A stretch of DNA of 64,000 bases from the human T2T-CHM13v2.0 reference genome, Homo sapiens (GCF_009914755.1 NC_060928.1), one strand, 5' to 3'. Shown: positions 15,712 to 21,748, counted from the stretch's first letter. Notes: generated by a model from the letters alone, not told the origin. Numbers and translations are program-made.

Positions 15712-18472
15712 TTTTTTAAATTATACTTTAAGTTCTAGGATCCATGTGCAGAACATGCAGGTTTGTTAAATAGGTATACACGTGCCATGATGGTTTGCTG
15801 CACCAGGAGATGGCATCCCATTGTGGTTTTGATTTGCATTTGTCTAATGACTAGTGTTGATGAGTTTTTTTTATATGTTTATTGGCCACATAAATGTCTT
15901 CTTTTGAGAAGTGTCCGTTCATATCCTTTGCCCATTTTTTGATGGGTTTGTTTGTTCTTCTTGTAAATTTGTTTAGGTTCTTTGTAGATTCTGGATATTA
16001 GCCCTTTGTCAGATGGATGATTGCAAAAATTTTCTCCTATTCTGTAGGTTGCCTGTTCATTCTGATGATAGTTTCTTTTGCTGTGCAGAAGCTCTTTAGT
16101 TTAATTAGATCCCATTTGTCAATTTTGGCTTTTATTGTGATTCCTTTGGTTGTTTTGATCATGAAGTCTTTGCCCATGCTGATGTCCTGAATGATATTGC
16201 CTAGGTTGGCTTCCAGAATTTTTTATGGTTTTAAATCTCACATTTAAGTCTTTAATCTATCTTGAGTTATTTTTTGTATAGCATGTAAGGGAGGTGTCCA
16301 GCTTCAGCTTTCTGCATATGGCTAGCCAGTTTTCCCAACACCATTTGGTAAATAGGTCAGTAAATAGGGAATTCTTTCCCCATTGCTTGCTTTTGTCAGG
16401 TTTGTCAAAGATCAGATGGTTTTAGATGTGTGGCGTTATTTCTGAGGCCTCTGTTCTGTTCCATTGGTCTATATATCTGTTTTGGTAGCAGTACCATGCT
16501 GTTTTGGTTACTGTAGCCTTGTAGTATAGTTTGAAGTCAGGTAGCATGATGCCTCCAGCTTTGTTGTTTTGGCTTAGGATTGTCTTGGCAATGCGGGCTT
16601 TTTTGGTTCCATGTGAAATTTAAAGTAGGTTTGTTCTAATTGTGTGAAGAAAGTCAACGGTAGCTTGAAGGGGATAGCATTGAATCTATCAATTACTTTG
16701 GGCAGTATGACCATTTTCACAATATTGATTCTTATTATCCATGAGCTTGGAATGTTTTTCCATTTGTTTGTGTCCTCTATTATTTCCTTGAGCAGTGGCT
16801 TGTAGTTCTATTGAAGATGTCCTTCACATCCCTTGTAAGTTGTATTCTTAGGTATTTTCTTCTCTTTGCAGCATTTGTGAATGGGAGTTCACTCATGATT
16901 TAGCTGTTTGTCTATTATTGGTGTATAGGAATGTTTGTGATTTATGCACACCGATTTTGTATCCTGAGACTTTGCTGAAGTTGTTTATCAGCTTAAGGAC
17001 ATTTTGGGCTGAGATGATGGGGTTTTCTAAATATACAATTGTGTCATCTGCAAACGGAGACAATTTGATTTCCTCTCTTCCTATCTGAATACCTTTATTT
17101 CTTTCTCTTACCTGATTGCCCTGGCCAGAACTTCTAATACTATGTTGAATAGGAGTGGTGAGAGAGGGCATCCTTGTCTTGTGCTGGTTTTCAAAGGGAA
17201 TGCTTCCAGCTTTTGCCCATTCATTATGGTATTGGCTGTGGGTTTGTCATAAATAGCTCTTATTATTTTAAGATACGTCCCATCAATACCTAATTTATTG
17301 AGAGTTTTTAGCTCTTATTATTTTGAGATAAGTTTCATCAATATCTTGTTTATGGAGAGTTTTTAGCATGAAGGGGTGTTGAATTTTATGGAAGGCCTTT
17401 TCTGCATCTATTGAAATAATCATGTGATTTTTATCATTGGTTCTGTTTTTGTGACAGATTATGTTTATTGGTTTGCATTTCTTGAACCAGACTTGCATAT
17501 CAGGAATGAAGCTGACTTGATGGTGGTGGATAAGCTTTTTGATGTGCCACTGATTTCGATTTGCCAGTATTTTATTAAGAATTTTCGCATTGATGTTCAT
17601 GGGGGATATTAGCCTGAAATTTTCTATTTTTGTTGTGTCTCTGTGAGGTTTTAGTATCAGGATCATGCTGGCCTCCTAAAATGAGTTAGGGAGGAGTCCC
17701 TCTTTTTCTATTGTTTGGAATAGTTTCAGAAAGCATGATACCAGCTCTTCTTTGTAACTCTGGTATAATTTGGCTGTGAATCTGTCTGGTCCTGTACTTT
17801 TTTTGGTTGGTAAGCTATTAATTGCTGCCACAATTTCAGAGCCTGTTATTGGTCTATTCAGGGATTCGGCTTCTTCGTGGTTTAGTCTTGGGATGGTGTA
17901 TGTGTCCAGGAATTTATTCATTTCTTCTAGATTTTCTAGTTTATTTGCTTAGAGGAGTTCATAGTATTCTCTGATGGTAGTTTGTATTTCTGTGGAATCA
18001 GTGGTGATATCTCCTTTATTATTTTTTATTTTGTCTATTTGATTCTTCTTTTTTTCTTCTTTATTAGTCTGGCTAGGGGTCTGTTTTGTTAATCTTTTCA
18101 AAAAACCAGCTCCCAGATTCTTTGATTTTTTGAAGGGTTTTTGTGTCTCTATCTCCTTCGGTTCTTCTCTAATCCTAGTTATTTCTTGTCTGCTGCTAGT
18201 TTTTGAATTTGTTTGCTCTTACTTCTCTAGTTCTTTTAATTGTGATGTTAGGGTGTCGATATTAGATTTCCCTCATTCTCCTATGGGCATTTAGTGCTAT
18301 AAATTTCCCTCTAAACACTACTTTAGCTGTGTCCCAGAGATTCTGGTGCATGTCTTTTTGCTCTCATTGGTTTCAAATAACTACTTTATTTCTGCCTTAA
18401 TTTTGTTATTTACCCAGTAGCCACTCCGGGGTAGGTTGTTCAGTTTTCATGTAGTTGTGTGGTTTTGAGTGA
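15712..18472 (-). mobile_element. L1PA7-like element, left arm of the palindrome (ORF2 from late EN region to 3' end; most of the 3' UTR deleted at ~15804)
   Basis: 3' end ttatactttaagttctaggatccatgtgcagaac... and ORF2 fragments including the RT motif FADD (16893-17171) and the Z-region peptide [12 protein letters not shown]. Confidence 0.95.
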
Positions 18473-18838
18473 CAACGTACCAGTATCTCTGAGACACAGC
18501 TGAAGCAGTGTTTGTTTGAACAACCCTTCAAAAAAAAATCAGTGAAATCAGGAGCTGCGTTTTTGAAAAGATTAACTAAATAGATGGACCACTAGCCAGA
18601 ATAATAAGAAAAGAGAGAAGAATCAAATAGATACAATAAAAAGTGACAAAGGGGATACCACCACTGATCTCACAGAAATATAAACTACCGAGAGAGAATA
18701 CTATAAATACCTCTATGAAAATAAACTAGAAAATCTAGAAGAAATGGATAAATTCTTGGACAGTTACGCTCTGCCAAGACTAAACCAGGAAGAAGTCGAA
18801 TGCCTAAATAGACCAATAACAAGATCTGAAATTGTAGC

Positions 18839-19799: not shown

Positions 19800-21748
19800 T
19801 GTAGCAGTAATTAATAGCCTACCAACCAAAAAAAACCCAGGGCCAGAGAGATACAGAGCTGAATTATACCAGAGGCACCAAAAGGAGGTGGTAACCTGCC
19901 TTCTGAGACTATTCCAAACAATAGAAAAAGAGGGACTCCTCCCTAACTCATTTTAGGAGTCTAGCATGATCCTGATACCAAAACCTGACAGAGACACCAC
20001 AAAAATAGAAAATTTCAGGCCAACACCTCTGATGAACATTGATGCGACAATCCTCAATAAAATACTGGCAAGCTGAGTCCAGCAGCACATCAAAAATCTT
20101 ATCTTCCACGATCAAGTCAGCTTCATCCCTGGGATGCAAGTCTGGTTCCACAAACACAAATCAATAAACGTAATCCATCACAAAAACTGAATCAATGATA
20201 AAAACTACATGATTATCTCAATAGATGCAAAAAAGGCCTTTCATAAAATTCAACACCTGTTCATGCTAAAAACTCTCCATAAACAAGGTACTGATGAAAC
20301 TTACCTCAAAGTAGTAAGAGCTATTTAAGACAAACCCACAGCCAATATCATACTGAATGGGTAAAAGCTGGAAGCATTCCCTTTGAAAACCAGCACAAGA
20401 CAAGAATGCCCTCCCTCACCACTCCTATTCAACATAGAATTGGAAGTTCTGGCCAGGGCAATCAGGTAAGAGAAAGAAATAAAGGTATTCAGATAAGAAG
20501 AGAGGAAATCAAATTGTCTCTGTTTGCAGATGACATGACTGTATATTTAGAAAACCCCATCATCTCAGCCCAAAATGTCCTTAAGCTGATAAACAACTTT
20601 AGCAAAGTCTCAGGATACAAAATCGGTGTGCATAAATCACAAACATTCCTATACACCAATAATAGACAAACAGCTAAATCATGAGTGAACTCCCATTCAC
20701 AAATGCTACAAAGAGAAGAAAATACCTAAGAATACAACTTACAAGGGATGTGAAGGACATCTTCAATAGAACTACAAGCCACTGCTCAAGGAAATAAGAG
20801 AGGACACAAACAAATGGAAAAACATTCCAAGCTCATGGATAATAAGAATCAATATTGTGAAAATGGTCATACTGCCCAAAGTAATTGATAGATTCAATGC
20901 TATCCCCTTCAAGCTACCATTGACTTTCTTCACACAATTAGAAAAAACCTACTTTAAATGTCATATGGAACCAAAAGAGAGCCCACATTGCCTAGACAAT
21001 CATAAGCAAAAAGAACAAAGCTGGTGTCACCATGCTATCTGACTTTAAGCTATACTATAAGGCTACAGTAACCAAAACAGCGTGATACTGCTACCAAAAT
21101 AGATATATAGACCAATGGAACAGAACAGACCTCAGAAATAATCCCACACATCTACAACCATCTGATCTTTGACAAATCTGACAAAAACAAACAATGGAGA
21201 AAGGATTCCCTATTTACTAAATGGCATTGGGAAAACTGGCTAGCCATATGCAGAAAAGTGAGATTTCTTTTTCTATTTAATTTCTTAAAAATTATTGCTT
21301 ACCATTAAGCAAAAACAATAAGACTCAAAGTGCAGTATCTTATGTTAACACTGTTTGGATTCCTTGGAAAAGAATATAGCTATAAACTAAAATGAATGGT
21401 AAAATGGACATCATTCGTTATATAAGATAAAATAGCATTTCTTTTTGAAGTACCTTGAGAGTAACAAAGTATTATGTTGATTTCTCTTGAATTAATCACT
21501 AATAGTTTCAGTTTTATAGCATTTTAAAGAGTAATATGATTAATGAGCTATTTTAACACTGAAAAGTACTTTAACAAAGTATTAGACTATATCCGAAGAC
21601 AATTTAGTAAGTAATATCTCTACATTTTAAGGGCATATGATTTAAGACATATGCTAGTACTTAGTTTTAGTATTTAGTGTTTTGTATTATCTGAACCAAC
21701 AGACACAATAAAATCTTAATTGTGTATTAAATAAAATTATTTAATATT

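What the first reader, a model, noticed from the sequence alone, without database searches (positions are those of the whole stretch)
15712..21258. ~5.5 kb fold-back palindrome apparently built from one L1 molecule
Seen: an antisense L1PA (T-tail at ~15712) runs to 18472 and joins, with no intervening unique DNA, a sense copy of the same ORF2 interval (18473-21258). The right arm starts about 120 nt 3' of where the left arm stops and pairs with the left arm out to ~16311. Both arms share defects relative to the remembered L1PA consensus: the same stop after ...LLPNSF (ttttaggag), the same deletion acagctaaatc (consensus acagagagccaaatc), cggtgtgcataaatc, aattataccag and tactgctacc. Known: ordinary twin priming gives this 5'-to-5' geometry but usually with little overlap between the pieces. 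Inference: the + strand reads like first-strand cDNA that folded back on a ~120-nt loop and copied ~1.8 kb of itself, or twin priming with kilobase overlap, or a later inverted duplication. Long near-spacerless inverted repeats are usually unstable, so its persistence is notable. The flanks (agttcctctttttt at ~15704, agatttcttttt at ~21260) only weakly resemble a TSD.
Basis: partly seen in the sequence, partly recalled or inferred. Interest (0 to 1): 0.8.

Follow-up and report, generated by a model that had tools for sequence, protein, structure and literature searches.

The report
Nested inverted L1 insertion, later homogenised
An old, dead L1 retrotransposon on human chromosome 4 sits next to a backwards copy of its own middle part, most likely made in a single insertion event, and the defects the two copies share come from later copying between them, so it is a tidy example of known processes rather than a new one.

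Summary
An antisense L1 (15718-18472, T-run 15712-17) abuts, with no base between, a tail-less sense copy of the same ORF2 interval (18473-21261). The sense copy starts 121 nt 3' of the antisense arm's 5' end. All five shared motifs are mirrored in both arms and rare elsewhere (0-1 of 57 other L1PA copies).

- A 961-bp solo LTR splits the right arm (18839-19799).
- Each arm has its own indels.
- Arm-to-arm identity is a mosaic: about 98-99% over ~400 nt, 96% over 715 nt, and ~82-87% elsewhere.

Shared derived variants follow that mosaic. They number 20 of 395 columns in the core, 11 of 446 in the next segment, and 0 of 297 nearest the centre. One of them is an ORF2 stop. The shared defects therefore most likely reflect repeated arm-to-arm gene conversion, not inheritance from one RNA molecule.

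A one-event origin still fits best, but on geometry alone. The inverted arm lies entirely inside the sense arm's L1 interval, the loop is short, the right arm has no 3' end, and both flanks are unique. I favour snap-back self-priming of the first-strand cDNA over twin priming with ~1.9 kb overlap, but cannot separate them. No TSD is demonstrable. Interest is modest.

The parts
15712..15717 (-). Remnant of the poly(A) tail (T6 on the + strand) of the tailed arm
   Evidence: sequence; L1 3' end aligns from 15730 down to ~15718 with other copies
15718..18472 (-). Left arm: the 3'-terminal ~3.2 kb of an L1PA element (ORF2 from about residue 240 to the 3' end), sense on the minus strand. It has a 598-nt internal deletion at 15804 and a ~54-nt tandem duplication at 17254-17362
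   Evidence: co-linear with copy L003, 85%; duplication
18353..18472 (-). Loop: the 120 nt at the 5' end of the left arm that have no counterpart in the right arm
   Evidence: alignment: right arm starts at column 121 of the left arm
18473..18838 (+). Right arm, inner part: sense L1 ORF2 (about residue 281 to 460), with a ~170-nt deletion after 18513
   Evidence: (ORF2p 409-460 at 18684-18839)
18839..19799 (+). Solo LTR (961 bp, TG...CA) inserted into the right arm after the L1 event; 6-bp TSD TGTAGC at 18833-18838 and 19800-19805. The name HERV-K/LTR5-type is recalled and was not tested against a library
   Evidence: sequence; 39 other genomic copies at 96-97% over ~961 nt
19806..21261 (+). 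Right arm, outer part: sense L1 ORF2 to residue ~947. It ends without an L1 3' end or tail against unique DNA
16598..17312 (-). Left copy of the high-identity (gene-conversion) tract; the youngest part, ~16680-17080, is ~98-99% identical to 20497-20897. It contains the RT active-site FADD codons
   Evidence: (96% over 715 nt)
20265..20979 (+). Right copy of the high-identity tract
   Evidence: (the other arm is the best genomic hit at 96% against <=92% for all others)
19951..19959 (+). Shared ORF2 stop (TTTTAGGAG), mirrored at 17673-17681 on the left arm; it lies in the ~86% identical segment A

Best explanation
**Origin.** One target-primed reverse transcription event made both arms. The + strand T-rich nick primed first-strand cDNA from the poly(A) tail back to about ORF2 codon 240. 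The 3' end of that cDNA then turned back on itself about 120 nt in. It primed DNA-templated synthesis along the cDNA for ~1.9 kb (snap-back) before being joined to the other side of the break. That gives a tailed 3.2-kb arm plus a tail-less inverted arm nested inside the same L1 interval.

**Later changes.**
- The arms diverged to ~14% difference.
- Each arm acquired its own indels, and the right arm received a solo LTR.
- The arms exchanged sequence by arm-to-arm gene conversion at least two or three times.
- That exchange spread post-insertion mutations, including an ORF2 stop and a frameshift deletion, to both arms. It left a 96-99% identical tract.

**Shown:** the anatomy, the mosaic of identity and the distribution of shared variants.
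**Inferred:** the single event, the snap-back step and the order of events.

**Confidence by part:** the stated 0.42 is for the whole chain including the snap-back step. Taken separately, a one-event origin is ~0.75 and gene conversion as the source of the shared defects is ~0.85.
For: **Geometry**
- The junction has no spacer base, and the right arm starts 121 nt inside the left arm.
- The right arm spans reference-copy positions ~121-2059, entirely within the left arm's 1-3236.
- The right arm has no 3' end, and no matching L1 3' piece lies downstream.
- Both flanks are single-copy.
- Ordinary twin-primed copies look different. In window 10625-11589 and in locus L007 the inverted piece covers the adjacent upstream interval with no overlap.

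**Both arms looked like the family when they formed**
- The innermost segment has 0 shared derived sites in 297 columns, against 16 and 27 private ones.
- The arms agree at 7 of 7 transversion-type polymorphic sites outside the tract.
- 7 of the 39 best genomic hits of each arm's segment A are the same loci.

**Gene conversion**
- Identity per 100 columns runs 81-87%, then 95-99%, then 88-91%.
- Shared-to-private counts are 20:7 in the core against 14:130 in inner+A+C (counts; Fisher p=1e-11; 14:129 after the correction).
- Control pairs of other copies reach the observed shared count in 0 of 1540 (core) and 2 of 1378 (A).
- The arms are sisters with support 1.0 (core), 0.975 (A) and 0.87 (C). 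In the inner segment their smallest common clade holds 49 of 52 taxa.

**Mechanism is precedented (passages read)**
- Snap-back synthesis templated 'most commonly [by] the cDNA itself' before 5' junction formation, for R2 insertions in human cells (PMC11204384).
- Self-annealed 3' ends priming inverted duplications at L1-induced breaks (bioRxiv 10.1101/2024.12.14.628481).
- Fold-back inverted duplications of 52-220 bp at somatic L1 insertions (PMC10191854).
Against: - No TSD can be shown, so a single insertion is not proven.
- Only 1 nt of microhomology marks the turn, and a 120-nt loop is larger than the 'small hairpins' described.
- The reported L1-associated fold-backs copy target DNA and are 52-220 bp, not 1.9 kb of L1.
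- The right arm has more private substitutions than the left. The count is 93 against 62 sites (p=0.016), but 68 against 51 events after collapsing clusters (p=0.14). Equal ages predict equality.
- Segments A and C carry old shared variants (stems 0.022 and 0.015). A diverged source or a slightly later duplication would also produce these. Only the inner segment argues against that reading: P(0 shared) is 0.0007 at A's rate and 0.036 at C's rate.
- The reference copies were chosen by similarity to the left arm.
- No subfamily library was available.
Confidence: 0.42

Rival explanations
1. Twin priming (or 'dual-template' priming) with ~1.9 kb overlap. The second DNA end annealed internally at about ORF2 codon 947, on the same L1 RNA or on a second one, and was extended to codon ~281. 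The poly(A)-primed cDNA ran through the same interval to codon ~240. The two cDNA 3' ends were then joined.
For: - The orientation and order of the pieces are exactly those of twin priming.
- Twin-priming insertions with a duplication at the inversion junction are a recognised conformation: REV+DUP+FOR in PMC12350158, from a main-text figure legend and a supplement passage.
- Priming of both nicks by two mRNAs has been proposed (PMC2837659).
- A head-to-head pair of two 3'-complete L1 arms exists among the 57 comparison loci (L012+L067).
- If the RNA template ended near codon 240, both reverse transcriptases would stop close together.
Against: - On one RNA, the trailing enzyme would have to displace 1.9 kb of the other cDNA and overtake its end by 120 nt.
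- With two RNAs, 5' ends that coincide within 120 nt and complete nesting are unexplained coincidences.
- The two ordinary twin-primed copies at hand show no overlap.
- I found no published size for junction duplications. The original twin-priming paper is not held.
Confidence: 0.3
2. A DNA-level inverted duplication (replication template switch or break-induced fold-back) copied part of an already inserted, ordinary 5'-truncated L1 some time after insertion.
For: - Inverted duplications are the commonest inversion class in human long-read data, with a median of 284 bp (PMC12350158).
- The arms share derived variants, including an ORF2 stop, in segments A and C, as expected if the L1 had aged before being copied.
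Against: - The switch would have had to occur exactly at the L1/flank boundary, because no L1 sequence continues beyond 21261.
- The innermost 297 columns have 0 shared derived sites where about 7 would be expected at A's rate (297 x 11/446; P=0.0007).
- The shared fraction differs several-fold between segments.
Confidence: 0.1
3. Two independent L1 insertions of the same subfamily landed head-to-head, and the right one later lost its 3' ~1.2 kb and tail by deletion.
For: - The arms are no closer to each other than to other copies outside the converted parts. They are 86% identical, against 87-89% for the best genomic hits, and neither arm appears in the other's top 40.
- The right arm has somewhat more private changes.
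- No common TSD can be shown.
Against: - This needs three coincidences: insertion exactly at the other element's 5' end, 5' truncation points within 121 nt of each other, and a deletion ending exactly at an L1/unique boundary.
- No separate tail or TSD for the right arm is visible.
- There is no subfamily difference at 7 of 7 informative sites.
Confidence: 0.07
4. On the sub-question of the shared defects: the older shared variants, including the stop at 19951, were already in the source RNA. That RNA would be a diverged, dead L1 mobilised in trans, so both arms inherited the variants at birth. Only the 96-99% tract would then be later conversion.
For: - The 14 shared variants of segments A and C are interspersed with private ones, and nearly all are absent or rare in the other copies. 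Eleven occur in 0-2 of ~50-57 copies; three reach 3 of 56, 4 of 55 and 10 of 54.
- Trans-mobilisation of defective RNAs is known (established knowledge, not tested here).
Against: - There are 0 shared sites in 297 inner columns against 16 in 675 in A plus edge1 (Fisher p=0.004).
- L1 shows strong cis preference (recalled).
- The shared fraction rises stepwise toward the core, as nested conversion tracts would produce.
Confidence: 0.15

Closest known systems
L1 5' inversion by twin priming, including the catalogued form with a duplication at the inversion junction (Ostertag & Kazazian 2001, recalled and not held; REV+DUP+FOR class in PMC12350158)
   Same: A tailed sense 3' segment is preceded by an inverted L1 segment, joined 5'-to-5' with 0-1 nt of microhomology, and there is no tail on the inverted piece.
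   Different: The inverted piece does not cover the upstream neighbouring interval. It is nested inside the sense piece, giving ~1.94 kb of overlap and a 120-nt offset. The two ordinary cases examined here have no overlap.
Snap-back junctions in target-primed reverse transcription (R2-mediated insertions in human cells, PMC11204384). Also fold-back inverted duplications at L1 insertion sites (PMC10191854; bioRxiv 10.1101/2024.12.14.628481)
   Same: Sequence at the 5' junction maps to the opposite strand of the inserted cDNA itself. This fits a cDNA 3' end priming further synthesis before the junction forms.
   Different: This is a germline fossil of an L1 rather than R2, and it is kilobase-long. 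The reported L1-associated cases duplicate 52-220 bp of target DNA. The loop here is 120 nt.
Arm-to-arm gene conversion in palindromes and inverted repeats (for example Y-chromosome palindromes; recalled, with the review PMC7999016 seen in passages)
   Same: Patchy homogenisation of inverted arms; shared derived mutations are confined to high-identity tracts.
   Different: The scale is small (tracts of ~0.4-0.8 kb in 2-kb arms), the exchange is incomplete, and the sequence is non-functional repeat DNA.
'Dual priming' of both nicks by two L1 mRNAs (proposed in PMC2837659)
   Same: It predicts head-to-head L1 pieces that cover the same L1 interval.
   Different: Dual priming predicts a tail on both arms. 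Here the right arm stops at ORF2 codon ~947 without a tail. Locus L012+L067 on contig C14 fits that prediction better.

Membership tests
L1 insertion with 5' inversion (twin priming) | Sense 3' segment ending in the L1 3' end and a poly(A) tail | tested here: met
   The left arm aligns to the 3' end of other copies, followed by T6 on the + strand. The tail is very short.
L1 insertion with 5' inversion (twin priming) | Inverted L1 segment directly abutting the 5' end of the sense segment | tested here: met
   Junction 18472|18473 with no intervening base
L1 insertion with 5' inversion (twin priming) | Inverted segment derives from the L1 interval just upstream of the sense segment, with only a small deletion or duplication at the junction | tested here: not met
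   The inverted segment covers reference positions ~121-2059 and the sense segment 1-3236, so it is nested with ~1.94 kb of overlap. 'Small' is as worded in PMC5668948.
L1 insertion with 5' inversion (twin priming) | One target-site duplication flanking the whole structure | tested here: inconclusive
   Only TCTTTTT is shared, a score reached by 12% of random and 44-54% of T-matched 25-mers. No paralogous empty site exists because both flanks are single-copy.
Snap-back (self-primed) TPRT junction | 5'-junction sequence maps to the opposite strand of the inserted cDNA itself and lies within the interval already copied | tested here: met
Snap-back (self-primed) TPRT junction | Short loop with complementarity at the turn | tested here: inconclusive
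   Loop of 120 nt; 1 nt (at most 2 nt) of possible microhomology, in ~14% diverged sequence
Snap-back (self-primed) TPRT junction | Arms identical at birth | not testable with these tools
   Only indirect evidence: the inner segment has no shared derived sites, so both arms were family-like when formed. Outgroup genomes or young polymorphic examples are needed.
Arm-to-arm gene conversion between inverted repeats | Discrete tracts of much higher identity than the rest of the arms | tested here: met
   95-99% against 81-91% per 100 columns. In the tract the other arm is the best genomic hit at 96%, against <=92% for all others. Outside the tract it is not among the top 40.
Arm-to-arm gene conversion between inverted repeats | Shared derived variants concentrated in those tracts, and tree topology changing along the arms | tested here: met
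   Counts per segment, control pairs and four segment trees; Fisher tests
Solo LTR of an endogenous retrovirus (HERV-K/LTR5-type; name recalled) | ~960-970 bp unit with TG...CA ends, a short TSD and many dispersed genomic copies | tested here: met
   961 bp, TGTGGGG...CTTCA, TSD TGTAGC; 39 other copies at 96-97%. The family name was not tested against a repeat library.

The most novel reading that the evidence does not exclude
Germline L1 retrotransposition can finish by kilobase-scale snap-back: the first-strand cDNA primes on itself and copies ~2 kb of its own length. This creates palindromic L1 insertions that are distinct from twin priming. The diagnostic would be an inverted arm nested inside the sense arm with a short loop. 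This locus would be a fossil tens of millions of years old of that route, kept partly homogeneous by arm-to-arm conversion. A systematic census of such nested pairs could measure how often TPRT ends this way.
Probability: 0.4. Interest if true: 0.5.

Novelty: new member of a known kind. Interest (0 to 1): 0.3.

Why it matters
The locus gives a concrete, sequence-level criterion for separating snap-back products from twin-priming products among L1 5' inversions: nesting plus a short loop. It also shows that shared 'defects' in inverted repeat arms cannot be read as common descent from one molecule unless gene conversion is excluded. How L1 completes second-strand synthesis and 5' joining is still unsettled. 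Kilobase self-templated synthesis in the germline would be a useful data point. The locus itself is intergenic, has no annotated gene and is long dead. Its importance is as an example, not as a functional element.

Tried and rejected
- **TSD search:** local alignment of the flanks against nulls found nothing significant.
- **Paralogous empty site:** both flanks are single-copy, so none exists.
- **Missing 3' end of the right arm:** I searched the 64-kb window. Only older, ~65-77% identical L1 pieces and one unrelated twin-primed L1 were found.
- **APOBEC-type editing or RT errors as the source of shared variants:** rejected. The spectrum is mixed, with no G>A excess, and the number, 42 sites, is far above any RT error rate (rate recalled).
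- **Selection bias of the reference copies as the cause of the right>left asymmetry:** rejected, because the asymmetry is largest in segments not used for selection. It loses significance once clustered sites are collapsed.
- **Different subfamilies for the two arms:** no support (overlap), but no Dfam or RepeatMasker library was available, so the subfamily is not named.
- **Survey of the 57 comparison loci for inverted self-matches:** 5 of 57 had one of >=100 nt. None had the same nested, one-tailed architecture.
- **Literature:** the original twin-priming paper is not held. Six full-text searches were answered. They found no stated size range for junction duplications and no kilobase nested L1 case. 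Many older subscription papers are not in the library, so this is not a claim of absence from print.
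Full report
**1. What is there**

The window is T2T-CHM13 chr4:120466001-120530000 (hub note; one search places it at G000:C4).

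- **Left arm.** On the + strand a T6 run (15712-15717) is followed by the reverse complement of an L1 3' end. Antisense L1 then runs co-linearly with other genomic L1PA copies to 18472.
- **Right arm.** At 18473, with no base between, sense L1 begins. L1 homology ends at 21261 +/-2 against unique DNA.
- **L1 coordinates.** In the coordinates of one comparison copy (L003, trimmed), the left arm covers 1-3236 and the right arm ~121-2059. The inverted arm therefore lies wholly inside the interval of the tailed arm, offset by 120 nt at the turn.
- **ORF2p coordinates.** Fragments of the right arm match human ORF2p residues 409-460, 683-750 (with the FADD active site) and 903-947. The arm starts near residue 281, and the left arm starts near residue 240. 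Both figures are inferred and from the second weak alignment.
- **State of the ORFs.** All three frames of the right arm are full of stops. The left arm carries the same stop and the same 4-nt deletion.

**2.

- Positions 18839-19799 are a 961-bp solo LTR (TG...CA) with a 6-bp TSD TGTAGC. It has 39 other copies in the genome at 96-97%. The name HERV-K/LTR5-type is from memory.
- The right arm also lacks ~170 nt just after 18513, only 41 nt from the turn.
- The left arm lacks 598 nt at 15804.
- The left arm also has a ~54-nt tandem duplication at 17254-17362 and a 12-nt duplication near 16350.

**3. The arms are a mosaic**

- *Overall pairing.* Gapped BLAST gives 86.9% over 1526 columns and 82.0% over 323.
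- *Per 100 columns.* Identity runs 81-87% (L 17380-17880), then 95-99% (L ~16680-17280), then 88-91% (L 16380-16680).
- *Genomic hits with the 715-nt tract as query.* The other arm is the best hit at 96%, and all 38 other full-length hits are 90-92%.
- *Genomic hits with the neighbouring ~460 nt of either arm as query.* The other arm is not among the 40 scored hits, which are 86-89%. Seven of the 39 non-self hits are the same loci for both arms.

**4. Shared derived variants**

I aligned both arms (LTR removed) with 57 other L1PA copies. These copies were chosen by similarity to the left arm's tract (28 copies) and to its segment A (29 copies). I classified every column in which at least 70% of at least 25 other copies agree.

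| Segment (left-arm coordinates) | Columns | Shared derived | Left-only | Right-only | Both differ, from each other too |
|---|---|---|---|---|---|
| inner 18142-17833 | 297 | 0 | 16 | 27 | 1 |
| A 17832-17370 | 446 | 11 | 28 | 34 | 1 |
| edge1 17369-17081 | 229 | 5 | 4 | 10 | 0 |
| core 17080-16680 | 395 | 20 | 5 | 2 | 0 |
| edge2 16679-16598 | 79 | 3 | 4 | 2 | 0 |
| C 16597-16309 | 269 | 3 | 5 | 17 | 0 |

These are the corrected counts.

- *Controls.* Pairs of other copies share on average 0.2-0.8 derived sites per segment. They reach the observed number in 2 of 1378 (A), 1 of 1596 (edge1), 0 of 1540 (core), 1 of 1540 (edge2) and 53 of 1428 (C).
- *Trees.* FastTree makes the arms sisters in three segments. 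In A the support is 0.975, the stem 0.022 and the tips 0.097/0.108. In core plus edges the support is 1.0, the stem 0.049 and the tips 0.022/0.024. In C the support is 0.87. In the inner segment the smallest clade holding both arms contains 49 of 52 taxa.
- *Rarity.* In the listing (same 42 sites, before the one-base fix), 29 of the 42 shared alleles occur in 0-2 of the ~50-57 other copies. The other 13 occur in 3-14.
Two lie in the core (20624, 20670), two in A (19862, and the stop at 19951) and one in C (21086).

**5. What the mosaic means**

- If the shared variants had come with the RNA, or from a pre-aged L1 copied later, they should be spread evenly. Zero in the inner 297 columns has P=0.0007 at A's rate and 0.036 at C's rate. 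A against inner gives Fisher p=0.004.
- The share of divergence that is common to both arms rises stepwise from 0 (inner) to ~0.2-0.25 (C, A), ~0.4-0.5 (edges) and 0.85 (core). This is the signature of nested conversion tracts of different ages.
- A stop codon and a frameshift in ORF2 among the shared changes fit mutations that arose after insertion on one arm and were copied to the other. L1's cis preference is recalled knowledge.
The inner segment does show that both arms were indistinguishable from the family when they formed. This places their origin at, or very near, retrotransposition.

**6. Origin**

- *Two independent insertions.* This needs three coincidences: exact abutment, truncation points 121 nt apart, and a deletion removing the right arm's 3' 1.2 kb exactly to unique DNA.
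- *A later DNA-level inverted duplication.* This needs a template switch exactly at the L1/flank boundary, and the inner segment argues against it.
- *One TPRT event.* This explains the geometry. Within that frame, nesting and the short loop follow automatically if the cDNA 3' end primed on the cDNA itself.
- *Twin priming.* On one RNA it needs the trailing enzyme to displace 1.9 kb and overtake. On two RNAs it leaves the coincidence of ends unexplained, unless the template RNA ended there.
- *Ordinary twin-primed copies at hand.* Window 10625-11589 and locus L007 have the inverted piece covering the adjacent upstream interval with no overlap.
- *Precedent for snap-back (passages read).*
  - It is documented for R2-mediated TPRT in human cells (PMC11204384).
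  - Self-annealed 3' ends priming inverted duplications are documented at L1-induced breaks (bioRxiv 10.1101/2024.12.14.628481).
  - Short fold-back duplications of 52-220 bp are documented at somatic L1 insertions (PMC10191854).
- *Precedent for twin priming with a junction duplication.* This is a catalogued conformation (PMC12350158), but I found no sizes.
- *My weighting.* Snap-back ~0.4, overlapping twin or dual-template priming ~0.3, later duplication ~0.1, two insertions ~0.07.

**7. Limits**

- No TSD is demonstrable, and no paralogous empty site exists.
- No primate orthologues or repeat library were available.
- Only 40 of 5,600-9,500 candidate copies were scored per genome search.
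- The right arm has more private differences: 93 against 62 sites (p=0.016), or 68 against 51 events after collapsing clusters (p=0.14). This is unexplained if real.
- The inner limit of the shared-variant region lies between L 17830 and 17841. It falls within ~3-14 nt of the LTR insertion point (L ~17827). I cannot explain this and treat it as probable chance.

**8. Persistence**

At birth the spacer was ~120 nt. Today the unpaired centre is larger because of the 170-nt deletion, the arms differ by ~14%, and a 961-bp LTR breaks the symmetry. In the review passages read (PMC7999016), a 52-bp spacer already abolished replication stalling by inverted Alus in eukaryotic cells. 6-kb Ty arms with a 280-bp spacer were stable in wild-type yeast. 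Survival is therefore expected rather than notable.

**9. Verdict**

This is a real, well-described structure. Its origin is probably a single non-canonical L1 insertion, either snap-back or overlapping twin priming. Its shared defects are explained by ordinary gene conversion. It is a long example of known kinds of event and of modest interest.

Noticed in passing
window 18839-19799 (TSD 18833-18838 and 19800-19805): A 961-bp solo LTR with TG...CA ends and a 6-bp TSD TGTAGC is inserted in the right L1 arm. It is 96-97% identical to 39 other genomic copies, so it is clearly younger than the L1. The HERV-K/LTR5-type name is recalled only.
   Followed up: partly
window 10625-11589: A separate L1 with ordinary twin-priming anatomy: an inverted piece at 10625-10777 covers the interval just upstream of the sense piece at 10773-11589, with no overlap.
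   Followed up: partly
L067+L012 (G000:C14:54279500-54285430), local 1903-5860: Two L1 arms head-to-head with 4 nt between them. Both run to, or nearly to, the L1 3' end, forming a 1.77-kb inverted repeat at 87.6%. The left one has a T-rich tail and sits inside an older sense L1. This is the architecture that the proposed 'dual priming' model predicts, though two independent insertions are also possible.
   Followed up: partly
L056 (G000:C5:134151551-134155012), local 799-1318 vs 1835-2354: A 520-nt inverted copy of an internal L1 stretch is inserted within an otherwise co-linear L1. It is 99.8% identical to its template ~0.5 kb away, so either the template switch is recent or conversion is active.
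   Followed up: no
window 17826-17841 / 18833-18839: The inner limit of the region where the arms share derived variants lies between L 17830 and 17841. It coincides within ~3-14 nt with the LTR insertion point, even though the LTR looks much younger than those shared variants. Unexplained.
   Followed up: partly
window 16479-16600 vs 20979-21100: In this ~120 nt the right arm has 12 private differences from the family majority and the left arm only 2. Overall the right arm has 1.5 times more private sites. This is not significant after collapsing clustered sites.
   Followed up: partly
window 12260-14047, 26617-32140, 38748-43230: Several older L1 fragments, 64-77% identical to the L1PA comparison copy (with one short 84% piece at 38748-38890), lie on both strands. 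The region is L1-rich.
   Followed up: no
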